DNA of 64,000 nucleotides from NCBI RefSeq assembly GCF_023055435.1, contig NW_025963791.1, positions 27,218,001 to 27,282,000 on the forward strand, given 5' to 3'. Shown here one piece after another: positions 13,395 to 62,510 of the stretch. Made by a program: the position numbers and the translations under genes. This DNA comes from Haliotis rufescens. Its lineage: Eukaryota. The notes below the pieces were generated by a model. The model saw nothing but the letters and a program-made list of their open reading frames with translations. It did no database searches and was not told the DNA's origin. How positions within the stretch are numbered: position 1 is the first letter of the stretch; every line of letters begins with the position of its first letter.

Positions 13395-14897
13395 TCAGAC
13401 TCTTGGTGCTGCAATGAACTTAAATGGCAGTGGGGCAAACGTTACTCCCGGCACAGCCTCCATGGTTGGCGGTTGCTCATCTTCAGGTTGTTGGAACCGG
13501 AAGCGCTGAATCATTGCTGTCAGGAAAAGGAATAGTTCCATCCTTGCCAGAGACTCCCCAATACAGGCCCGCTTGCCCAGAAAGAAGGGGATGAGTTCCT
13601 CGGGCTTCACAAACTTTCCATCGTCATCCAAAAATCTCTCAGGCTGAAACCTTTCCGGATCTTTGAAGGTTCCAGGGTTCATAAGCACAGAGTCAATGTT
13701 GGGCAGCACGATAACTCCTTTAGGGAATGTGTAGCCCCTGAACTTTAGGTCATGAGGCACACTGTGCCAGATTGACACAGGGATGATGTTGGCCACTCTC
13801 TGTATCTCAGCTATGGTTGCTTCAACATAAGGTAACTCCAGCTTGTCCGACATAAGTGGCAGCCTCTCTTGGCCGATGTTCATCTTGATTTCTTGGAAAC
13901 ATTTTTCTTGAATTTCAGGATATTTCAAGAGCAGTAGAACGGCCCATCGTATGGTAGTCGCAGTGGTTTCAGTTCCTGCAAGGAACAAATCACCAATTAC
14001 TTTTTCCAGATTTTCTAAGCCAATGGACGACTCCGCGTTTTCACGCTCCTTCCGCTTAATCTCTCTTATGTAAGCTGATATATAATCATCAATGTTGGAC
14101 TCATCATACTCTTTCAAATGCTCATCCATAGAAGGTTTTGTCAGATTGTTGACAAAGAATGCCAGATTCGCCAGTGTCCTTTTGAACTTGAATGGGTCTC
14201 CCGGAATATACCGAGCAAGTGGTATGAAGTTCAAGCCGGCTGTAGCTCCAACTGACTGAAGGTTTTCATCTATTTTAGCTGTCAAGTCCTTGAAGAATTG
14301 GTCGCCATAGACAAATCTTTTGCCAAGCACTATAGAAGTGATGATGTTGGCCACCGCCGTGTGGATCAAATCTCGGAAATCAAACTTCTTTCCTTTCATC
14401 CCTGCAATTTCATGCAGAAACGAGGCTGATTCTTCGTTAACCTTCACCTGCAGTATGTTCCTGCCCATCCCGAAGTCTCTCAGCGTGGACAGCGTGAAGC
14501 GCCTCTGTTCCTTCCAGACCTGTCCGGATGTTCCGGCCAAGCCCATGCCGTTGCTAACCTCGTCAACCACAAAAACATGAGGACGATCAGAGAAAACATC
14601 ACCGTGCTTCACAAAAGCGTCTTTCAAGACCTCATAGCCATTCAAGATGATCACTAACCGATTACCAATATACACACTAAAAATGTCACCGTATTTTTTA
14701 TGCCATTCTCGGAATTTCTTCTTCGGATTCTTCCCGATGGACAACGCATGGCCGACAAGCGGTAAGGGGAAACCTGGCCCCGGGGGTGTTCCCGACGGCC
14801 TCCTGAACGTCAGCCACAGCACGAGGGCACCAACACCACAACTGAGAATTGCTGTCAGATTGTCCGTGAAAAATATACTCAGCATTGTCGCTTTCAT
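13395..14897 (-). CDS. Cytochrome P450, CYP2 clan, intronless, 500 aa (CYP-A)
   Basis: N-terminal TM anchor, PPGP hinge, WKEQR, I-helix AGTETT, EIQR, PERF, heme motif FFLGKRACIG; uninterrupted ORF. Candidate AATAAA on minus at 12706-12711. Confidence 0.97.
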   Translation of the reverse strand: MKATMLSIFFTDNLTAILSCGVGALVLWLTFRRPSGTPPGPGFPLPLVGHALSIGKNPKKKFREWHKKYGDIFSVYIGNRLVIILNGYEVLKDAFVKHGDVFSDRPHVFVVDEVSNGMGLAGTSGQVWKEQRRFTLSTLRDFGMGRNILQVKVNEESASFLHEIAGMKGKKFDFRDLIHTAVANIITSIVLGKRFVYGDQFFKDLTAKIDENLQSVGATAGLNFIPLARYIPGDPFKFKRTLANLAFFVNNLTKPSMDEHLKEYDESNIDDYISAYIREIKRKERENAESSIGLENLEKVIGDLFLAGTETTATTIRWAVLLLLKYPEIQEKCFQEIKMNIGQERLPLMSDKLELPYVEATIAEIQRVANIIPVSIWHSVPHDLKFRGYTFPKGVIVLPNIDSVLMNPGTFKDPERFQPERFLDDDGKFVKPEELIPFFLGKRACIGESLARMELFLFLTAMIQRFRFQQPEDEQPPTMEAVPGVTFAPLPFKFIAAPRV

Positions 14898-15339
14898 TCT
14901 TTTAAAATAGGGTATTTGGGCCTCACCGAGAGGATTGTTATTTCCTTCAGTAGACGGTATACACGAGTGTAGATTTACTCAGTCAAGATATAGGGACGTA
15001 GATATATACACCAGTCGTGATACAGGACTGTAGATGTAACTTCACACACCAGTCGACTTAGTTCCACCACATATTTGTACTAGTTATTTCAAGTGAACGC
15101 GTAAATATAGCCCCCCCTACGCGTACCGCCTGCACAAATCAAGGGAATGTACAGTGTGGCGAAACGGGAAGACGTGTATGTTGGATTTGAATCAAGGCCA
15201 GTGAAACTATGACAGGCTGTATGTGAAAAGGCGAAACATGGACCTCGGACCCAGATAGTATTTTATCAGTGGTTGATCCCGTATCAAAGAATATCTTCTT
15301 GGCCCACTTTACTTTGCCCTATATTGCTCTTATGTTTGG

Positions 15340-15695
15340 GACCGCCTCCGTGGTCTAATGGTAGAGCGTCCGCCCGGAGAGCGGAAGGTCCGGGGTTCAA
15401 TCCCCGGCCGCGTCATACCAAAAGACGTTAAAAGATGGTACTTATTGTTACCCTGTCTGGCGCTCGGCATTAAGGGGCTAAAACAAGGACAGGTCGGCTC
15501 GGAGTCAGTATACTGTGTCTGAGTGTGGTATTCATGTTAAACTGCGGCATGGTATCTCAGCAGGCTTGCACTATAAATCGGCATCAGTCCGGACTAGAAC
15601 AAGCAGCCATTTACACGTGCATGCACGTCGCTATATAAGTGCAATAATCTTGGACGCGACGTTAAACCCCATTTCACCTCACCTCACCTCACCTC
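15340..15695 (+). mobile_element. tRNA-derived SINE family C (MetaSINE-like), full length
   Basis: tRNA head with A/B boxes, central GTCATACCAAAAGACGTTAAAAGATGGTAC...CTGGCGCTCGGCATTAAGGG domain, tail + (ACCTC)n, TSD CTCTTATGTTT. Confidence 0.85.
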
Positions 15696-16143
15696 TCTTA
15701 TGTTTCTTAATCTGTACAGGGACAGGTGTCGCCGATTTACTGTGCAGACAGTAAGTTACATTTAAAACCACATGACCGACAATAGAGCTGCACATACACT
15801 TCATCCCAAACCTTCAGGTTCAACATCTGTATATTATCCTTTGCTACCGTTCCACAAGTGTGCCTCACTTTCCCTGAACCATATTATTTTCCCTTCCGCC
15901 CATCCCTGACTGGAATGCTATAACCCAAAATAAAGCAAGTCTATATGTTTAACAGGTTCAGGGCTGAATCTCCCATCTCTCTGAGGCTCCTTTCAATTTA
16001 AATGAAGTCGTTTGTTTCTATCAAAATTGCATTCTGAATAATCAATGTCCATTGGTTGTCAAATTTGATGACGTATATCGATCCATCAGTTCATGTTTAC
16101 CCCATTTACGCAAAGACATAACTATATGTCAGACTGAGTCTGC

Positions 16144-16390
16144 ATTGTTACATTTTTCATGAACGCAGGTGATTCTCACTGCTGCTCACTTGAGGCAAAC
16201 AAAAGTCAGCCCTGTAGACTTTCAGTATACAGGTGACCCCTGGTTTTGTATATTCAACAACGGGAATTGTTACATTTTTCATGAACGCAGGTCATTGTCA
16301 CTGGTGTTCACCCTTAAAGCAAACAAAAGTCAGCTCTGTAGACTGTCAGTATACAGGTTACCCCTGGCTGTGTATATTCAACCACAGGAA
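16144..16390. repeat. Diverged tandem duplication, 2 x ~122 bp
   Basis: ATTGTTACATTTTTCATGAACGCAGGT...GCAAACAAAAGTCAGC...TGTAGACT.TCAGTATACAGGT.ACCCCTGG occurs twice (from 16144 and 16266). Confidence 0.85.
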
Positions 16391-16825
16391 TTCGTAGCTG
16401 TACACAAATAGAACTGTTTTTACTGACCCATGTTTATTGACCCATGACATTTGGCCTCGAAGGATACAATGGTCAGTAAGTGAGTCGATAAAATAGGTTT
16501 GTGAACAGCTGCCATCGAATGCTTGTGGTTCAACAACGCCATAACGACGGGAAAAGGACTGAATGTACATATATCCCTGCATAGTGCTTAACACAGTGCA
16601 GCAGTGCGTATTTACACAACTCGCAGCCCAGTTTTTTCAATGCGACGATGAACCCTGGAGGCGCACTTTGAATGCACATGCATTGTCCTTGGCCTGTGGC
16701 TAAAAATAACCTATCGCGTTCGTGTGACAACGAAAGCCTCGTTACCCTGTGAAGTAAATCTGGGTTGAACAGTGGATTGGGAGTGTGGTCCGAGGATAGA
16801 GTATACGGAGAGACACAGGGTAACA

Positions 16826-18313
16826 ATGTTGGAAGAAGTTTTCACCGGATATGCGACTCCGATTCTGGTATCAGGGATATGTCTGCTTGCACTGTGGTTC
16901 AGTACCAGACGTCCATCCGGGCTTCCTCCTGGGCCGAGACCTTTACCTGTCTTAGGCAACCTGCTGTCCTTGAAACCTGACTTTAGGGAACAGTTTCAAG
17001 CATGGAGAAAACAACACGGAGATTTGTTCACTCTCTATCTAGGCAACCGTTTAACTATAGTGTTAAACGGATACGATGCAGTGAAGGAGGCACTGGTGAA
17101 GAATAGCGAGGTCTTCGCCGTGAGGCCCTACGCAGTTGTGTTTGACGATCTTTTCAAGAACAAGGGAGTGATATCAAGCAATGGGGACGTGTGGAAGGAA
17201 CAGAGAAGATTAACCCTCTCCACGCTGAGAGACTTTGGAATGGGGAAAAATATGCTTCAAGAAAAGATCAATGAGGAGATTAGGGTTTGTCTTGAGGTTA
17301 TCGCAGACCAGAAGGGACAGAAGTACGACACTAATCATATTATCCAGACATCTGTGTCGAATATTATTTGTTCTATGGTGTTTGGGAGACGATTTCAGTA
17401 TGACGATCCACTGTTTATAGAATATCTGAGAAGGACAGACGAGAACTTCAAGGCAGCTGGGAGGCTTGGCGGTCTCAACTTCATCCCATTTGCAAAGCAT
17501 ATTCCTGGTGACCTTTTCCTGTATCACAAGACAGCTGAGAACATTGCGTTTTACGAGGACAGGCTGATAAAACCTTCCATTGAAGAACATCTCAAGGCTT
17601 TTGATGAGAATAACATCGACGACTTTATCGCTGCATACATCAGAGAGATGAAGGTTAAGGAGAAACAAGGCGTGGAGACGTCCATTGGATATGACAATCT
17701 GGTAAAGGTCATCGGAGATTTGTTCATTGCTGGGACCGACACCACGTCTACTACCATTCAGTGGATACTGTTGTATCTAACAGTTCATCAAGACATCCAG
17801 GCTAAATGCTTCAAGGAAATCGAAGACAATATTGGAACACAGAAACTGCCCGGGATGACTGACAAGCTGAAGCTTCCTTACATAGAAGCAACCATTACAG
17901 AAGTACAGAGGATCGCCAATATTGCTACCATAGCTGGATTCCATGGCGTCACCGAAGACATAGTATTCAGAGGATATCGCCTCCCCGCTGGGTGCATTAT
18001 CTTCCCAAACTTAGACTCTGTCATGATGGATCCTGCAATTTGGGAAAATCCTGGACAATTTCGACCAGAGAGGTTTCTCGGTGCGGATGGTAAATTCACC
18101 AAACCCGAGGAATTCATCCCGTTCTCAATGGGTAAGAGGGCGTGCCCAGGAGAGTCACTTGCCCGGATGGAGCTGTTCCTGTTCATCACGGGTCTCCTCC
18201 AACGGTTTCAATTCTTGCCACCGGAAGATGAACCGCCGCTCTCGATGGAGCCCGTGCCTGGAGCAGTGCTGAAGTCTCAACCCTTCAAGGTCGTGACTGT
18301 ACCTAGGAATTAG
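16826..18313 (+). CDS. Cytochrome P450, CYP2 clan, intronless, 495 aa (CYP-B)
   Basis: First in-frame ATG at 16826 (the ORF-track start is GTG); TM anchor, PPGPRPLP, WKEQR, AGTDTT, EVQR, PERF, FSMGKRACPG. Confidence 0.97.
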   Translation: MLEEVFTGYATPILVSGICLLALWFSTRRPSGLPPGPRPLPVLGNLLSLKPDFREQFQAWRKQHGDLFTLYLGNRLTIVLNGYDAVKEALVKNSEVFAVRPYAVVFDDLFKNKGVISSNGDVWKEQRRLTLSTLRDFGMGKNMLQEKINEEIRVCLEVIADQKGQKYDTNHIIQTSVSNIICSMVFGRRFQYDDPLFIEYLRRTDENFKAAGRLGGLNFIPFAKHIPGDLFLYHKTAENIAFYEDRLIKPSIEEHLKAFDENNIDDFIAAYIREMKVKEKQGVETSIGYDNLVKVIGDLFIAGTDTTSTTIQWILLYLTVHQDIQAKCFKEIEDNIGTQKLPGMTDKLKLPYIEATITEVQRIANIATIAGFHGVTEDIVFRGYRLPAGCIIFPNLDSVMMDPAIWENPGQFRPERFLGADGKFTKPEEFIPFSMGKRACPGESLARMELFLFITGLLQRFQFLPPEDEPPLSMEPVPGAVLKSQPFKVVTVPRN

Positions 18314-19068: not shown

Positions 19069-19914
19069 CTCAACTGATATGCAGTTAATTGAAAGCCCGA
19101 AGTGACGCATATTCAGGTGGCAGACATTTACCATAAAACATTGGGCTGGATAGTTAGAGCGTTCGCTCGTCGCGGGTTCACTTTCCATTGTGGGTTTACT
19201 GTATGAAACCCAACACCAACACCGTGATATTAAATAATTAATGCCAAAAGCGGTGTAAAGCATCACCCACTCACGGTATCCAGCGTTTGTATGTAGTGCA
19301 AATTTTTCTGGTAGAATGTGCTCGGAAACGAGAACATACATGTTGCATAATTTATTCTTTTGTTGACTCTCGCTTACCCAGTAGTGCTGAAGTGGAACTT
19401 AGTCACTATTTGGTAAAATTATTAATTATGATATAATTATTAACTCATACTGTAATACTAAATGAATAAATATTATTAAGTCAACAACTATTTTTACAAT
19501 TTCATATGTGATGTAGTAATATCAATGTTCAAAACATTTAAATTACTAAAACATCTAGAAAAAACATTAAATAAAAAAATCTAATGTTAGTCATCAGAAA
19601 TTATAGTCCACTTTCTCACACCGTAACAACATAGGCGTAAATTCTACATCTGAATGGCAATGTGGCGAGCTGGTGCACTATTCATAGTATCACTAAGACT
19701 ATTCTATCCAATAACCTCTTTCAGTCGGTCGATACCCTGCGCAGAGCAATGCGGCGGTGAGCCTGGTATAGTCAGCCTTAATCGCTTTATTGACTGAGCT
19801 CCTGGGCCGTTTCGATTTGACGAATTATGTGACAGGTAAAATGTGTCTCGACATGTCTGGGATTTGGGAGATGGTTGTTTATAACAGTCGTCCTTGCAGC
19901 TGCAACCTGTAAGT

Positions 19915-21438
19915 ATGGACCAGCTAACGCAGATGATTTGTGACAATGTTACTACGACCTTGATTGTCGTTGGATCCGTGCTAGTTGCTGTGTGGCACTT
20001 TAGCAGACGACACTCACAACTTCCGCCCGGACCCAGGCTGCGCTTGCCTTTGTTTGGAAATATGTTTTCAGTTACACGGGGCATTAGAGAGGCGTTACAA
20101 GAATGGAGGAAGGATTACGGTGATATATTCTGTTTATACCTTGGACAACGCCGTGTCGTGGTGCTAAACGGTTATGACGTCATAAACGAAAGCCTTGTCA
20201 CACACGGGCACTTGTTCGTGAAACGGCCAGACCTGTTCGTTTCTGAGTATCCCAATCATGGCAGGGGCGTTCTGGGGACGGCTGTGACAGTTGGGTTGGA
20301 ACAACAGCGAATAGCTGACGTTTGTCTCCGAGGTTTTACAAGCGGATCCGGAAAGGACATTTTGGAAATTAGGACTGGCGAAGAAGTCAATAATTTACTA
20401 CGGCTTATCAAAGAAGAAAGTCGTCGAAATTTGGACCTACGATCTTTTATTAACTTCGCTGTCACTAACGTCACATGTTCTATTTTGTTCGGCAAACGAT
20501 TTGAAGATGATGACCCACTCTTTGTTGAGTATTTGAAACGACGACAAGAGGATTTTAGTTTGACGGCCATTTTAGAGTTTATGCCATACCTGCGTTATTT
20601 GCCAGGAGATATATTCAATATAAAACGTTTGGCCGAAAATGTTGCATTTACAGAGGATGAAATAATCAAACCTTCCATAAAACGCCATGAGAAGGATTTT
20701 GATGACCACAATGTGACTCTTGTATCGGCTTTTTTAAAGGAGTGCCAAAATCTGGGCTTGCCTGTGAATGATGACCATCTTGTTAATATTGTTGCAGATT
20801 TGTTAATTGCTGGGTCGGAACCCACAGCTGTTGCTATCCAGTGGGGTATTCTTTATTTCATTGCTTACCCTGATGTACAGGACAGAGTCTACCAAGAAAT
20901 CAAACAGAATGTAGGCTTGCATCGTGTCCCGAACATGTCGGATATGGAAAGCCTCCCTTATGTTCAAGCAACTATTTCTGAGGTGCTGAGGTGTGTGAAC
21001 GTAAATCCTTACGGTGCCCGGCGGTTTGCTTCCCGTGACGTTATGTTCCGGGGATACCTTATTCCAGAAGACACAATGATTGTACCTGTTTTAGAATCAG
21101 CGTTGTTTGACCAAGAACATTGGGACAACCCAGAAGAATTTAAACCGGAGAGATTTCTGAATGAGGAAGGGCATTTTGTAAAACACAAACAATGGATTCC
21201 TTTTTCTATTGGTCAAAGCTCATGCTTAGGTGAACAATTGGCAACTTTGGAAATGTTCTTGTTTCTCTCAGCAATGATTCAACAATTTCGGTTTCGGAAA
21301 TCAGAAAAGTCAAAGTCGCTATCTTTCAATTCCGATACAAATTTGTCATTCAGACCTTATCCGAAGTGTGTTCAGTTGATTGACAGGCACCGTGTAAGCG
21401 AACATAGGAATAACATTCCATCATGCTACCTTCGTTAA
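19915..21438 (+). CDS. Cytochrome P450, CYP2 clan, intronless, 507 aa, atypical catalytic motifs (CYP-C)
   Basis: ATG at 19915; TM anchor, PPGP, EVLR, PERF and heme Cys (FSIGQSSCLG) present; I-helix AGSEPT; WxxxR replaced by GLEQQ. Confidence 0.93.
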   Translation: MDQLTQMICDNVTTTLIVVGSVLVAVWHFSRRHSQLPPGPRLRLPLFGNMFSVTRGIREALQEWRKDYGDIFCLYLGQRRVVVLNGYDVINESLVTHGHLFVKRPDLFVSEYPNHGRGVLGTAVTVGLEQQRIADVCLRGFTSGSGKDILEIRTGEEVNNLLRLIKEESRRNLDLRSFINFAVTNVTCSILFGKRFEDDDPLFVEYLKRRQEDFSLTAILEFMPYLRYLPGDIFNIKRLAENVAFTEDEIIKPSIKRHEKDFDDHNVTLVSAFLKECQNLGLPVNDDHLVNIVADLLIAGSEPTAVAIQWGILYFIAYPDVQDRVYQEIKQNVGLHRVPNMSDMESLPYVQATISEVLRCVNVNPYGARRFASRDVMFRGYLIPEDTMIVPVLESALFDQEHWDNPEEFKPERFLNEEGHFVKHKQWIPFSIGQSSCLGEQLATLEMFLFLSAMIQQFRFRKSEKSKSLSFNSDTNLSFRPYPKCVQLIDRHRVSEHRNNIPSCYLR

Positions 21439-21444
21439 TGACAT

Positions 21445-21520
21445 ATTTGTGGTGTTCCCCCGCCGTGATATTGCTGGAATATTGCTAAAAGCGGCGTAAA
21501 ACCATACTCACTCACTCACT
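21445..21520 (+). mobile_element. 5'-truncated SINE family A
   Basis: 3' half plus (ACTC)n; TSD TCGTTAATGACAT (21432-21444, 21520-21532) includes the CYP-C stop codon. Confidence 0.85.
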
Positions 21521-21639
21521 CGTTAATGACATGGTTTGCAAACGCGGGTCACCTACACACCGCATGATGTGTATTAAATGATGTGTTACCAAGAATACGT
21601 GTGTTAGCAAGGGAGTATTTAAAACTGCATCCTCTATAT

Positions 21640-24745: not shown

Positions 24746-26725
24746 TTAAAAAGTCATTTTGAGATTTTGATGATTCTTGTTGAGGAAAATCATGGCATCG
24801 AGGTTCTTGGGTGGAATGCATGACCTTTGAACCCTGACGGGATCTCTGTCTGGGAGGAAGATATGCTCAGCCGGTCTGGAGGTGGCCATGACGCACATGT
24901 ACTTCTTCGCAAGGCATGAGATGTTGGGGAAGATCTTCTCCCTCTCGTACCACCAGATCAGTGAGGTGCTAGATGTGATCTGCTTCTCCGCCATAAACCG
25001 GTCAATTTCCGAACTCACCATCTCCACCGGCGACATTTTGTCCAAAGGGACGTCATCCTTGTGACCTACTACATCGGACAGCCAGTCGTTTTCAAATTTA
25101 GAAGCAGGAGATTTAAACTTCATCCTCTTTTTAACAGGTTCTTCCGAACTAGGGCTACTTCCATGGACGTCCGATCCGTTCGAGATAGAGAATGGTGGTC
25201 CTAGGATGATGTTCTGAATGTATTCATCGTCACTGTCCACTTCCTGTTTGATCTGAAAGTCCGTCAAGAAAGGTCGCAGCGCTGCATCATAGAGCAGCCG
25301 CCTGGCCTTTTCTCTCTCGACAGCCTCGACATAACGCAGTTCTTTATAACGAGGGTCTAACAGTGAGCAGACGAGAAGAATATCCCGGATGTTGTCCGAG
25401 GAGTATGGAGAACGTATTTCCTTCCAGATGGTGTTCCGACACTCTTTAATCACTGGGCAGTCTGTTTCACCTCCAAGAAGCGTGATCTCAAGCTTCTTCA
25501 GGACCGGCAGTATCATTGACACCGTGACCATCCTCTGCTCACAGAGTAACATAGAGGCATTGTTCAGGGGTCTCAGTAAGTCTACAAGCTCCTGACACAG
25601 TTTCTGGTTATTGGAATCGAACAGAAACAGACGCACGTCTTCCTTCTGTAAATCGGGATTCTGGAAAGCCATTTGTATTGAGGGCATATCTCTGATGATC
25701 TGTTCAAGCATTGTAAATGTAGAATTCCACCGATCCTCATCATCAACCTGCAAGGAATTCAAAGAAGGGAGGGATTGCTTCAGACTATCTCCAACGCCAG
25801 ACATAAAGAAACGCGACAGTTTTCGGGCCGACACAATCATGCTCTGTATTTCGGGCTGGGCTAGTCCTTTCTTGGCTGCAGCGTTGATCGTTTCAGCGAA
25901 ACAAGGCAAGTGTTTCCATTTCAGCAGCCCGCCGGACCTTAAAACAGTTTCATGACCTGACACAAGGATTGGTTCACATGTTATCCGCCAATTAGCTGCC
26001 TGGGTCTTCAGGGTTTCAGATATGTACCCAGCAGTTGCATCTACAGGCAGTTCCACTGTTTGCAACATAAAGGAATTTAACTGCCAAGACCTAGAAATGT
26101 AATTAGCCGTGATCGTCAAGTATCTCTCCGAGGACGACCAAATGTCTGTTGTCAAAGTAACATGCTCTTGATTTTCAAGTCTGGCTAAAACCTTAGTTCG
26201 CCCTTCCTCATACATCTGGGGCAGGAGGAAGTCCTCGAGATGTTTCCTTGAAGGAACATCTGTCTTCGGATCTAAAGTGTGTATTAGGTTCTGAAAAGCC
26301 TGACTAGCTATCGTTGTAAATGGCAGCATACCGTCAATAATAAACTCCATGATTGCATACGTCAGAGAAGAGGCTCTAGGAGACTCCTTCCCACTACTCG
26401 GTCCGTGCGCCGCTGCCATGGACGGAGGAATGTGGACGATATCGTTGACAGCTTGTGGACTTAGAGTGATGACCTGGTCATTTTCGGAGAAGCACATGAC
26501 CTGAGCGACCCCGACCTGGTCCTTCTTCAGGTGATGGTTGACGTAGTGGGTGTGGAGGTTGGTGGTGTTGCCGGTGTAGCGGACGCCGATGCGGCAGTAT
26601 TTGCAGATGGCCCTTGTTTTGTCCAGCGTATAACCGTCATCACTGAGATAGAAGCCGAAGTTCCTCCACACGTCGCTCTTGGCCTTGCCAGGAAACTCGA
26701 AGATCTGTCTGTATCCGCCCTCCAT
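24746..26725 (-). CDS. ZBED1-like BED zinc-finger / hAT-transposase-derived protein, ~659 aa, single coding exon
   Basis: BED finger (SDVWRNFGF...CKYC...NTTNLHTHYVNHH), TTDIWSS, HLPCFAE, RWNST, LLDPRYK and hATC dimerisation domain (WW...FPNISCLAKKYMCVMATSRPAE). Splice acceptor TTTTCAG at 26751-26745 precedes ATG 26725. Confidence 0.9.
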   Translation of the reverse strand: MEGGYRQIFEFPGKAKSDVWRNFGFYLSDDGYTLDKTRAICKYCRIGVRYTGNTTNLHTHYVNHHLKKDQVGVAQVMCFSENDQVITLSPQAVNDIVHIPPSMAAAHGPSSGKESPRASSLTYAIMEFIIDGMLPFTTIASQAFQNLIHTLDPKTDVPSRKHLEDFLLPQMYEEGRTKVLARLENQEHVTLTTDIWSSSERYLTITANYISRSWQLNSFMLQTVELPVDATAGYISETLKTQAANWRITCEPILVSGHETVLRSGGLLKWKHLPCFAETINAAAKKGLAQPEIQSMIVSARKLSRFFMSGVGDSLKQSLPSLNSLQVDDEDRWNSTFTMLEQIIRDMPSIQMAFQNPDLQKEDVRLFLFDSNNQKLCQELVDLLRPLNNASMLLCEQRMVTVSMILPVLKKLEITLLGGETDCPVIKECRNTIWKEIRSPYSSDNIRDILLVCSLLDPRYKELRYVEAVEREKARRLLYDAALRPFLTDFQIKQEVDSDDEYIQNIILGPPFSISNGSDVHGSSPSSEEPVKKRMKFKSPASKFENDWLSDVVGHKDDVPLDKMSPVEMVSSEIDRFMAEKQITSSTSLIWWYEREKIFPNISCLAKKYMCVMATSRPAEHIFLPDRDPVRVQRSCIPPKNLDAMIFLNKNHQNLKMTF

Positions 26726-26834
26726 GTATTCAACGATCCTGGTGCTGAAAATAAATAATGACGATAATTGATAATTGGCCAAAAAAATAGTAAAATAGTA
26801 AAATACATACTAGTAACCGTCATTTCAGTGACAT

Positions 26835-35906: not shown

Positions 35907-38900
35907 GATATAAGTGGGGGGCGCCCAGTATAGAACATATTCAAGCGTGTTAATGAACCATATGCTATAGTTAAAAACTTAATCCCCTTAATCGGAAGTT
36001 GCGTCATTTTTCAGGAAATGAGTCACAAGAAATAAGTTTCGACACATTGAGCGGGATATTAACCACACGGCGACAGGACAAGTTAATCTCCATGGACTTT
36101 CCCTTGAACCCTTCTGAGGAACAGGTCATGTGCTGCTACTTGTCATTACCCTTGATTATGCAGTGTGTTATTATCTGGATAAATGAGAGTGGAGATACAA
36201 TATCGGGGTTACTCCAGGGTGTCCTCAGTAATGGAGAATTAGCTGTAGTATATATTGTTAATGTTTATACCCGTGAAGAGCCGGGTTAGAATAGTTTTCA
36301 GCAACCCATGCTTGCCGTAAGAGGCGACTATGCTTGTCGTAAGAGGCGACTAACAGGATTGGCTGGTCAGGATCGCTGACTTGGTTGATGCACGTCATCG
36401 TATCACAGTTGCGTAGATCGATGATTATGATCAATCACTGGATTGTCTGGTTTAGACTCAATTATTTACAGGTCGCCGTCATATAGCTNNNNNNNNNNNN
36501 NNNNNNNNNNNNNNNNNNNNNNNNNNNNNNNNNNNNNNNNNNNNNNNNNNNNNNNNNNNNNNNNNNNNNNNNNNNNNNNNNNNNNNNNNNNNNNNNNNNN
36601 NNNNNNNNNNNNNNNNNNNNNNNNNNNNNNNNNNNNNNNNNNNNNNNNNNNNNNNNNNNNNNAAGAAGCTACCGCTGACCATTTTGTTTCAGCGCTGCCC
36701 TGTAGAAATGAATATGAAGGGATGAACAGCGAACATCAGTATCGAGAGTTGTCTCCCTTATACTAGCCGAGAGGTCTACAAGTTGATTATTAATAAACAA
36801 GTGTACACTTCTGCAATATATACTAGTATACATGAAAAGCAAGCTTCCCATTAAATGAACATTGATTCAAGCAATATAAGGAACAAATAAATTTCGTTTT
36901 TTTTATTACAGGATAGATCCGAAATGGAAAATCTCCTTAAGGTATGTTCGGAAGAAACATACAATAAGCGATAACAGTCATCCTCCCGAGGCAGGGGCGT
37001 TAACTGACTATAATTAATTAATATTATATATAATTAATTCACACATGCTTTGCAAATCCTGCAGTCGACCGAAATCTGCACGTTACGCGATTTTGATTGG
37101 ACTTTGCATAGACTCGTACTAGTATGCATAGACTGTGCATAGACTCGTTTGTCGAGCCAGAATGTAACTCCGGAATTCAAGCCAATCTCGACAAGGACGG
37201 AAACTGGACTTTTACAGTCAGTTAACGCCATTGCCTCGGGGAGATGATTAAAATAGACGATGGTGATTTCAAGGAACATGTTTGGATATTGTTTTAAAGG
37301 TTTCATCATCGTGTTTATCATCACCAGTACCACTCCAATAGTAAATCATCAGTATATATCATCATAAGGGACGTTACTCCACAATTTTGGTTTATCACTG
37401 TCCAGATTAACACAGTTTCACTGGACAGCCAAGCTAAGTTTAATACGTCCTCAATCCGTGTTCTTGTCAGGTTGTTGTAGACCCGTCACTGATTCAAGAT
37501 CTGGAATACTCCCCCACAACCAAGAAGCTGGTGGTCCGGTTGTCGGACTCCGTGACACGGTAAGTCGGACCAGTTGTTACGCACGTGCATACATTTGCTA
37601 CCCCTACGAAGCACACCTGTGATACACGAGCTTGTTACGTAAATGCAGATACCATTGTTGGCATAGTGTATTGACGTCACAAAAGATGATGACGTCATAA
37701 TTTGTTGTCGACGTCATGTGACGCTTTTAGCTTCCCCCCAAACGGTCATAGTTTTCTGTACAAACATTCAGCAATATTTTTTTAATTTGACGTTTAAACG
37801 ATATACGGCTTTTCCATTGGACGAGAGGTCGGTCACATGACCGCGAAGTTGACGTTCATAAGTGTATGAACGACACAATTTGACGTTCATACGTTTTTCA
37901 CGAGACCGTGTTCTTGAAATGACGTAAACACTGACGGACTACTTCCATATTCCTGGGGAAACCCCTGGGAATTCCCTATAGGGATAGCACGAAAACATAC
38001 ATAAGCATTATTTCTGATCATTTAGAACCTTTAATCTTGTTCTCAGCATTTAAGTTTACATTGAGAAACGCCAGAGAGCTTGACTGCATGATTGTTCAAG
38101 AATTTCCTCGCTACGGCCCATCCTAATGAACAAACGAAAAAATGCACATCCAAACTATCGTCAGTATCGACTCGATCTGTGTCTAGGCTGACAGTGACCG
38201 TCTCCAGCAATCTACGAATTTACGTTGGTGTCTGTTTGACGCATCTTTAATCACCTTTCAATAATCGGTCAGTTGATCAATTATGACTAACACATGTAAC
38301 CGCCACAGGTTCATTAACAACTTCGGAAATCCTCCCGTCACGTTTATCGTGTCGGCCATTTTGACGTCTTGTACTTGATGTAAATGTATTACGACGCGCT
38401 GTCATTGTGACTGACTTACTGAGGTAGTTCATTACAGACCTTTCTCGTCTAATGGGGTTATTATATGAACACATGTGTTGCGTAAGAAGTTTCTGAAGTG
38501 CAAGTTCTGCATCCATACGCTCATGCCACCTCTCTTTTTGGGGAACTATTTTATTCCGCGTTATAGCTGGTTGTTGTTTGGCTGTCAGTGTAAACATGAA
38601 GTCACACGTACTAAATAAAATTGTGTTTAGATTTTGGCCTACGTCCTTTGAGGAAAGAAATTGTGATAACAAATTATAAGAATTGACTTTCACTTTGTGT
38701 GAGTTCATTGGAGTATGAACCTGCATAGAGTGAGGGCCAAACATTGTATGAACGTTGTCGCAAGCTCCTACGTTCATACAGTTTGGCCCTCACTCTATGC
38801 AGGTTCATACTCCAATGAACTCACACAAAGTGAAGGTCAATTCTTAATAACATCACGCAAAACTTACAAAACGAAATATTTATCGACTTTGTACCATGAA

Positions 38901-62371: not shown

Positions 62372-62510
62372 NNNNNNNNNNNNNNNNNNNNNNNNNNNNN
62401 NNNNNNNNNNNNNNNNNNNNNNNNNNNNNNNNNNNNNNNNNNNNNNNNNNNNNNNNNNNNNNNNNNNNNNNNNNNNNNNNNNNNNNNNNNNNNNNNNNNN
62501 NNNNNNNNNN
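62372..62510. other. Assembly gap (N run)
   Basis: Run of n characters. Confidence 1.

What the first reader, a model, noticed from the sequence alone, without database searches (positions are those of the whole stretch)
19915..21438. Intact P450 lacking the oxygen-activation Thr and two heme-propionate ligands
Seen: relative to its neighbours, the I-helix AGT(E/D)TT reads AGSEPT (Thr>Pro), the C-helix WKEQR reads GLEQQ, and the heme loop GKRAC reads GQSSC. The Cys ligand, ExxR, PERF, membrane anchor and 507-codon frame are all intact. Known: the acid-alcohol Thr supports proton delivery for O2 activation, and P450s lacking it (CYP74, CYP5A, CYP8A) rearrange peroxides rather than acting as classic monooxygenases. 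Inference: a neofunctionalised peroxide isomerase/peroxygenase, or a heme-poor pseudo-enzyme or binding protein.
Basis: partly seen in the sequence, partly recalled or inferred. Interest (0 to 1): 0.72.

Follow-up and report, generated by a model that had tools for sequence, protein, structure and literature searches.

The report
Abalone P450 with rewired catalytic core
Abalones keep an intact, transcribed cytochrome P450 gene that has lost the threonine used to activate oxygen and half of the residues that anchor the heme, so it likely works as a peroxide-driven enzyme instead of an ordinary detoxifying monooxygenase.

Summary
The 507-codon ORF at 19915-21438 is a single-copy CYP2-clan P450 beside two canonical paralogues. 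It has Thr303>Pro and keeps only 3 of 6 CYP2B4-type heme-propionate sites (Trp>Gly127, Arg>Gln131, Arg>Ser435 lost); all 141 non-orthologous homologues tested keep at least 4. It is not a decaying copy. Orthologues from three named Haliotis species and one unnamed assembly (83-98% identity) keep AGSEPT and FSIGQSSCLG unchanged. pN/pS is 0.22-0.28. Contigs from runs shown to be spliced RNA cover the gene. The lineage has a long stem (about 1.0 substitutions/site) and then evolves at about its canonical neighbour's rate. The Cys pocket and I-helix centre are invariant, while the C-helix varies most. Best reading (0.42): a heme-thiolate enzyme that no longer runs the normal reductase/O2 cycle and uses a peroxide, resembling CYP152 (Pro at the Thr site) or CYP8A1. 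It fails the membership tests for CYP74, CYP152 and CYP8A1. Rivals: a substrate-assisted ordinary monooxygenase (0.28) or a non-catalytic binder (0.26). No biochemistry exists, and I found no paper on the gene.

The parts
19915..21438 (+). Divergent CYP2-clan cytochrome P450, single-exon CDS, 507 aa
   Evidence: ORF; Pfam p450 336 bits; single copy in G000 by DNA search; AF2 model mean pLDDT 87.7, best fold matches CYP2R1/2C8 TM 0.83
19948..20034 (+). Predicted N-terminal membrane helix (residues 12-30) and PPGP hinge (37-40)
   Evidence: sequence; DSSP on model; P37-P40 kept
20224..20226 (+). Arg104 = CYP2B4 Arg98, propionate contact KEPT
   Evidence: R in 136, K in 4 of 141 homologues
20293..20307 (+). 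C-helix GLEQQ in place of WxxxR: Gly127 (Trp in 130 of 141; Gly in 0) and Gln131 (Arg in 135 of 141; Lys in H. rubra and H. asinina)
20809..20826 (+). I-helix AGSEPT: acid Glu302 kept, Thr replaced by Pro303 (codon CCC, 20821-20823)
   Evidence: SEPT and the preceding AG identical in 5 of 5 orthologues; Thr in 132, Pro in 3 of 141 homologues
20980..20991 (+). K-helix ExxR (EVLR), intact
21010..21024 (+). Remodelled SRS-5/beta1-4 YGARR: Tyr366 (1 of 141 homologues), new basic Arg/Lys369 (Arg in 3 of 141), Arg370 at the His369 propionate site
21145..21156 (+). PERF meander, intact
21202..21231 (+). Heme loop FSIGQSSCLG: Phe430, Ser431, Cys437, Gly439 kept; Lys>Gln434; Arg>Ser435 (Arg in 139 of 141 homologues, Ser in 0)
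   Evidence: invariant in 5 of 5 orthologues
21244..21246 (+). L-helix Thr444 at the CYP2B4 Arg443 position (Arg/Lys in 127 of 141 homologues)
   Evidence: the role of Arg443 in reductase binding is recalled
16826..18313 (+). Neighbouring canonical CYP2-clan paralogue (g2), 495 aa, used as rate control
13395..14897 (-). Neighbouring canonical CYP2-clan paralogue (g1), 500 aa

Best explanation
This is an intact, transcribed, selectively maintained abalone CYP2-clan P450 with Pro in place of the oxygen-activation Thr and three heme-propionate contacts removed, which likely still binds heme through Cys437 and likely works as a peroxide-driven enzyme (peroxygenase or hydroperoxide/endoperoxide isomerase) outside the normal reductase/O2 cycle. 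Shown: the sequence changes, their conservation across five orthologous proteins, purifying selection, RNA cover, a long stem branch followed by ordinary constraint, and a predicted intact P450 fold. Inferred history: a local duplication from the ancestor of the two neighbours, then rapid remodelling, then renewed constraint. Inferred mechanism: heme sits in an unchanged Cys/Phe/Gly pocket, held on one side by Arg104, Arg370 and Ser431. Pro303 would keep the I-helix groove but remove the hydroxyl that relays protons to Fe-O2. The C-helix and Cys-loop surface that docks electron donors has lost basic residues and would be relaxed. A peroxide (H2O2 or a lipid hydroperoxide) would bind the ferric heme directly, with Glu302 or a substrate carboxylate, possibly held by the new Arg/Lys369, assisting O-O cleavage. 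The substrate is unknown.
For: Selection: 19 synonymous and 14 non-synonymous of 33 differences in the ORF, pN/pS 0.22-0.28, P 2e-5 to 3e-4 against neutrality. Only 1.35% of 2000 neutral simulations reach 76 residue differences without a stop. Family-conserved sites are the ones kept among orthologues (Mann-Whitney P 1e-5). Tree: orthologue clade support 100, stem 1.03-1.04, terminal and crown branches 0.004-0.07, sister to g1+g2 at SH-aLRT 86-92 (quick trees). Identity to the H. rubra orthologue is 85%, against 88% for canonical g2. Heme pocket kept: residues 427-446 have 0 of 20 variable positions (P 0.006) and 299-325 have 1 of 27 (P 0.009), against 111 of 507 overall. Redox surface: the C-helix 124-140 has 8 of 17 variable (P 0.017); the equivalents of CYP2B4 K433 and R122, listed as cytochrome b5 contacts (PMC4330534), are Gln434 and Leu/Met128. 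[quoted passage not shown] CYP152 peroxygenases replace the acid-alcohol pair with Arg-Pro and have an altered Cys loop (PMC5818669). CYP8A1 differs from CYP8B1 in heme plane and propionate position (PMC9463588).
Against: No biochemical datum exists. The CYP152 Arg, the CYP74 9-residue motif and the CYP8A1 Asn/Trp are absent. Basic residues remain at 4 of 7 recalled redox-partner positions, within the homologue range (29 of 141 have 4 or fewer), and net charge of 422-446 is unremarkable (47 of 141 as low). The C-helix excess against canonical paralogue pairs is not significant (5 of 17 vs 1 of 17, P 0.09; 7 of 17 vs 2 of 17, P 0.06), and the blocks were chosen after seeing the alignment. Thr loss occurs in 9 of 141 homologues, and 13 of 84 annelid CYPs have a weak I-helix motif (PMC4229089). 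CYP152 enzymes also work with redox partners. The same CYP2C9 result fits a dead enzyme equally well. Position 131 is still basic (Lys) in 2 of 5 orthologues.
Confidence: 0.42

Rival explanations
1. It is still a reductase-dependent monooxygenase, specialised for one endogenous or dietary substrate. A substrate hydroxyl or ordered water would replace the Thr, and Arg/Lys369, Arg370 and Arg132 would re-anchor the heme, as in sterol hydroxylases with non-standard I-helices.
For: Glu302, Ser301 and Thr304 are kept in 5 of 5 orthologues. ER anchor and 4 of 7 basic proximal positions remain. CYP8B1 is a normal hydroxylase with an I-helix Asn shared with CYP8A1 (PMC9463588). The annelid CYP39B1 lacks both the I-helix motif and the heme-loop Arg at the standard position (PMC4229089 Table 2; its activity is not reported there). 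A new basic residue is fixed at 369.
Against: In CYP2 enzymes the heme-loop Arg is needed for activity (CYP2C9 Arg433; a reference title reports CYP2D6 R441C as complete loss of function, title only). No Arg follows the Cys here, which is the compensation I recall for clan 7. Removing the Thr in CYP101A1 loses efficient hydroxylation (PMC9112060).
Confidence: 0.28
2. It is a non-catalytic P450-fold protein: a heme-poor or altered-tetrapyrrole binder, a lipid or pigment carrier, or a modulator of its neighbouring P450s.
For: 3 of 6 propionate sites lost, against at most 2 in all 141 homologues. Heme-binding substitutions in CYP2C9 leave a stable but inactive protein. By my recall of CYP2B4 structures, the three lost residues all serve the D-ring propionate and the three kept serve the A-ring one, which would suit a ligand with one propionate; the papers were not held.
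Against: Cys437, Phe430, Gly433, Gly439, the L-helix and the I-helix centre with Glu302 are invariant across orthologues that differ by 17% overall. This is more than a heme-free protein should need, though these segments also form the folding core.
Confidence: 0.26
3. It is a decaying duplicate or transcribed pseudogene.
For: Long branch; loss of catalytic residues; 10 of 14 non-synonymous differences fall in the termini, and organism F alone gives pN/pS 0.34-0.44.
Against: Full-length in 5 of 5 orthologous proteins; no indel in the ORF in 4 of 4 runs laid; 4 non-synonymous against 16 synonymous differences in codons 54-466 (window chosen afterwards); neutral survival 1.35%.
Confidence: 0.04

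Closest known systems
CYP2 family / clan 2 microsomal monooxygenases (CYP2B4, 2C9, 2R1; mollusc CYP2-like)
   Same: Ancestry, fold (TM 0.83; VIA Z 41.8 to CYP2D6), ER anchor, PPGP, ExxR, PERF, Cys pocket.
   Different: Thr>Pro, WxxxR lost, heme-loop Arg lost, Lys433 and Arg443 equivalents neutral, two-residue insertion in the C-D loop, remodelled SRS-5; 38-41% identity to the nearest paralogues.
CYP152 peroxygenases (P450BSbeta, SPalpha, OleT)
   Same: Pro at the Thr position of the acid-alcohol pair; altered proximal Cys loop (PMC5818669).
   Different: Glu, not the carboxylate-binding Arg, precedes the Pro; membrane-anchored, 17% identity to CYP152N1; unrelated lineage.
CYP8A1 prostacyclin synthase, CYP5A1, CYP74
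   Same: P450s that need no external oxygen or electron donor; CYP8A1 has shifted propionates. That ligand-free CYP8A1 lacks most propionate contacts is recalled.
   Different: No conserved I-helix Asn/Trp, no 9-residue heme-domain motif, different clan.
Orphan CYP20A1
   Same: Lacks one residue of the heme-binding site and the I-helix motif; suggested to take a substrate carrying its own oxygen; function unknown (PMC4964396).
   Different: CYP20A1 is an old, widely conserved separate clan; this one is a CYP2-clan duplicate found only in Haliotis in these searches.

Membership tests
Cytochrome P450 superfamily, clan 2 | P450 domain and fold; nearest relatives in clan 2 | tested here: met
   Pfam 336 bits; PDB and fold hits are CYP2; tree
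Cytochrome P450 superfamily, clan 2 | Proximal Cys, ExxR, PERF, PPGP | tested here: met
Canonical CYP2-type monooxygenase | Acid-alcohol pair (E/D-T) | tested here: not met
   Glu302-Pro303 in 5 of 5 orthologues
Canonical CYP2-type monooxygenase | WxxxR and heme-loop Arg propionate contacts | tested here: not met
   Gly127, Gln/Lys131, Ser435
Canonical CYP2-type monooxygenase | Basic proximal surface for reductase/b5 | tested here: inconclusive
   4 of 7 recalled positions basic; 29 of 141 homologues have 4 or fewer
Canonical CYP2-type monooxygenase | Heme incorporation, 450 nm CO spectrum, NADPH-dependent turnover | not testable with these tools
CYP152 peroxygenase | Arg-Pro in place of the acid-alcohol pair | tested here: not met
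   Pro present, Arg absent (Glu302)
CYP152 peroxygenase | H2O2-driven turnover | not testable with these tools
   no assay
CYP74 clan | Extra nine-residue motif in the heme-binding domain | tested here: not met
   heme loop aligns without gap to CYP2; feature from PMC10813956
CYP8A1-type isomerase | I-helix Asn and 'low ceiling' Trp | tested here: not met
   no Trp and no conserved Asn in 294-304 (single orthologues have Asn at 295 or 298); not aligned directly to CYP8A1
Pseudogene | Frame disruption or dN/dS near 1 | tested here: not met

The most novel reading that the evidence does not exclude
An animal CYP2-clan P450 has converted itself into a reductase-independent peroxide enzyme by a route not described before (Glu-Pro dyad plus deletion of one whole propionate site). 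The Glu-Pro state may have arisen repeatedly: three other long-branched clan 2 proteins that group apart from it among mollusc sequences carry it, one also without the heme-loop Arg. A bolder variant: the one-sided propionate loss fits a non-standard, single-propionate tetrapyrrole such as a chlorophyll-derived chlorin from the algal diet (recalled link, untested).
Probability: 0.3. Interest if true: 0.82.

Novelty: new variant of a known kind. Interest (0 to 1): 0.58.

Why it matters
If the peroxide reading holds, it is a further independent exit from the standard P450 cycle, this time inside the detoxifying CYP2 clan, with its two canonical relatives sitting next to it for direct comparison. 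It offers a natural test of which residues a P450 needs for O2 activation and heme anchoring, a possible reductase-free biocatalyst, and a lead to unknown oxylipin, bromophenol or pigment chemistry in an algae-eating aquaculture animal. If it is non-catalytic, it would be a clear Cys-retaining P450 pseudoenzyme. Databases name the orthologues 'CYP2J5-like', '2H2-like' and '2B4-like', which hides the anomaly.

Tried and rejected
Deeper orthologues outside Haliotis: none among the 7995 candidates scored in each of two searches or the best 150 of 2105 hits at 1e-30 in the 50% representative library. Relatives above 50% identity would be hidden in one cluster there, and other vetigastropods may be poorly sampled, so the range is a lower bound. 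No listed run is on record as RNA; RNA status was inferred only for X1 and X13 from a splice junction. Contig depth was not used to rank expression, and tissue could not be determined. ESM Atlas gave only generic P450 clusters. Structure search did not rank CYP74, CYP8 or CYP152 near the top, which reflects ancestry and not function. The careful maximum-likelihood tree did not finish; both trees are quick ones. General decay as the cause of the losses was rejected. Net-charge tests of the proximal face were uninformative for 422-446 and only suggestive for 127-147 (9 of 141 as low). Complex prediction was not run: I claim no binding pair, and heme cannot be scored. Literature searches (abalone CYP terms; motif strings; three accessions) found nothing on this gene: one search listed 17 unrelated papers matching only the string 'agsept'. 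Searches found no useful paper on P450 pseudoenzymes or other Thr>Pro P450s. Papers were not held, so the A-ring/D-ring assignment, the CYP8A1 propionate result and the full reductase-site list stay recalled. Earlier scan findings: none. No supplements were read.

Full report
OBSERVATION. The window holds three long single-exon P450 reading frames: g1 (13395-14897, minus), g2 (16826-18313, plus) and the target (19915-21438, plus, 507 aa). The target is 38-40% identical to its neighbours. It matches Pfam p450 at 336 bits and mammalian CYP2 structures best. The three motif changes are as described. Mapped on CYP2B4 through the alignment: W121 is Gly127, R125 is Gln131, R434 is Ser435, K433 is Gln434, R443 is Thr444 and R122 is Leu128; R98 (Arg104), S430 (Ser431) and H369 (Arg370) are kept. 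W121, R125, H369, R98 and S430 are propionate contacts in CYP2B4 (PMC11409197, passages). The heme-loop Arg belongs to the heme-binding motif in CYP2C9.

HOW UNUSUAL. Among its 141 non-orthologues, Trp is present in 130, the C-helix Arg in 135, the heme-loop Arg in 139 and the Thr in 132. All keep at least 4 of 6 propionate sites (98 keep 6, 36 keep 5, 7 keep 4); the five orthologues keep 3. None of the 141 has three or more of the four key losses. The protein is not generally eroded: 65 of 75 highly conserved columns are kept, and 28 of 141 homologues lose as many or more. Five of its ten losses (124, 127, 131, 303, 435) lie on the C-helix, the Thr and the heme loop, and a sixth (His>Arg370) is conservative.

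ORTHOLOGUES AND SELECTION. The gene is single copy in G000; a protein search of the genome gave 64 matches, none a second close copy. Named homologues place the window in Haliotis. Orthologues come from H. cracherodii (98%), an unnamed assembly (98%), H. rubra (85%) and H. asinina (83%). All have AGSEPT, FSIGQSSCLGEQLATLE and Gly127. Position 131 is Lys in H. rubra and H. asinina. Four runs from three other coded organisms give 33 differences in the ORF, 19 synonymous and 14 non-synonymous, and no indel. pN/pS is 0.22-0.28 for transition bias 1 to 3 (P 2e-5 to 3e-4), and 0.12-0.44 by organism. Random mutation to the H. rubra distance leaves the frame open in 1.35% of 2000 trials, without counting indels. 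Sites that vary among orthologues are those that vary in the family (P 1e-5). Quick trees of 52 and 28 rows give an orthologue clade with a stem of 1.03-1.04 substitutions per site and short crown branches, sister to g1+g2 with moderate support (86, 92). Present-day divergence is close to that of canonical g2 (85% vs 88% to H. rubra). This is the pattern expected from rapid change after duplication followed by renewed constraint; the duplication history itself is inferred.

EXPRESSION. Fourteen of 24 listed runs are holders guessed to be RNA, from 7 studies; none is on record as RNA. I laid five of them and one probable DNA run. In X1 and X13, contigs of the downstream BED/hAT gene stop at 26745 with 62 and 158 unmatched letters upstream, at a tttcag acceptor, so these runs are spliced RNA. 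The same runs carry contigs over 19906-21444 (X1, no differences) and 19836-21444 (X13). The intergenic bin 16136-16652 has zero depth in 3 of 4 runs. X12 and X13 have no cover at 19500-19763, where X17 does. The gene is transcribed; protein, tissue and level are not shown.

STRUCTURE. The AF2 model has mean pLDDT 87.7 and pTM 0.88, with a continuous I-helix (286-317) and a low-confidence B-C region (about 64-65 at 111-130). Best matches are CYP2R1, 2C8 and 2B (TM 0.83) and CYP2D6 (Z 41.8, rmsd 2.8 over 439).

WHERE CONSTRAINT LIES. Across the five orthologues 111 of 507 positions vary. The heme loop and L-helix (427-446) have 0 of 20, the I-helix centre (299-325) 1 of 27, and 406-459 4 of 54. 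The C-helix (124-140) has 8 of 17. Against canonical orthologue pairs the C-helix excess is only suggestive (P 0.09 and 0.06). These blocks were chosen after viewing the alignment. New fixed features near the pocket are Tyr366 and Arg/Lys369.

MECHANISM. In CYP2C9, substitutions at Arg433 remove activity while the protein stays abundant (bioRxiv 10.1101/2021.03.12.435209, passages). Losing the Thr in CYP101A1 removes efficient hydroxylation and shifts the enzyme to a peroxide-type route (PMC9112060, passages). A normal CYP2 cycle is therefore unlikely without compensation. CYP152 peroxygenases carry Pro at this same position and an altered Cys loop (PMC5818669, passages). CYP5A1, CYP8A1 and CYP74 need no redox partner (PMC4964396, PMC7711093, PMC10813956, passages). 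K433 and R122 of CYP2B4 contact cytochrome b5 (PMC4330534, passages) and are neutral here. With an unchanged Cys pocket, this favours a heme enzyme fed by peroxide (0.42). Against it, the defining residues of each known peroxide family are missing, the proximal charge count is within the homologue range, and I-helix deviation is fairly common in lophotrochozoan CYPs (PMC4229089, Results part 1 of 2). A substrate-assisted monooxygenase (0.28) and a non-catalytic binder (0.26) remain open. From recall only, the three lost residues all hold the D-ring propionate and the three kept hold the A-ring one; the papers were not held. If correct, one propionate site was removed selectively.

OTHER PAPERS SEEN. 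PMC9463588 (passages), PMC6104999 (passages and a reference title), PMC13732479 (passages, nothing relevant). Searches were seen as listings.

NOVELTY. Searches found no description of this gene, and earlier scan notes hold none; subscription journals were not searched. Thr-less and Arg-less P450s are known, so this is a new variant of a known kind. The combination inside clan 2, fixed across abalones, was not seen in any of 141 homologues. Interest 0.58: real, conserved and directly testable, but restricted in range and with an unproven mechanism.

Noticed in passing
window 24746-26725 (-): Intact 659-codon ORF with an hAT C-terminal dimerisation domain and a weak BED finger, covered by spliced RNA contigs with an acceptor at 26745; may be a domesticated ZBED-type gene.
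   Followed up: partly
proteins P0009, P0011, P0019 (H. asinina, H. rufescens): A second abalone clan 2 lineage lacks the acid-alcohol pair (PGTYDN, GGTTDG) while keeping WxxxR and the heme-loop Arg.
   Followed up: partly
proteins P0033, P0169, P0217 (Bulinus truncatus), P0006 (Pomacea canaliculata): Other clan 2 P450s with Thr>Pro (GGTEPP, AGAEPV, GGTEPT) or Thr>Ala (GGSEAG); the three Pro cases have long branches (1.05-1.1) apart from the target, and P0169 also lacks the heme-loop Arg.
   Followed up: partly
window 13395-18313: g1 and g2 are divergently oriented with start codons 1.9 kb apart; all three P450 coding regions are single-exon, whereas many other clan 2 genes in G000 match exon by exon.
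   Followed up: no
window about 21445-21520: Contigs of four other runs leave the window sequence at 21443-21444 and resume with letters matching near 21530, so the window carries a short repeat insertion just after the stop codon.
   Followed up: no
loci L017 and L019 (G000:C223): Two single-exon P450s read FSTGGRKCLG beside paralogues with FSTGRRKCLG; L011 and L019 matches contain one TGA each.
   Followed up: no
window 36489-36662 and 62372-62510: Two runs of N, far from the finding.
   Followed up: no
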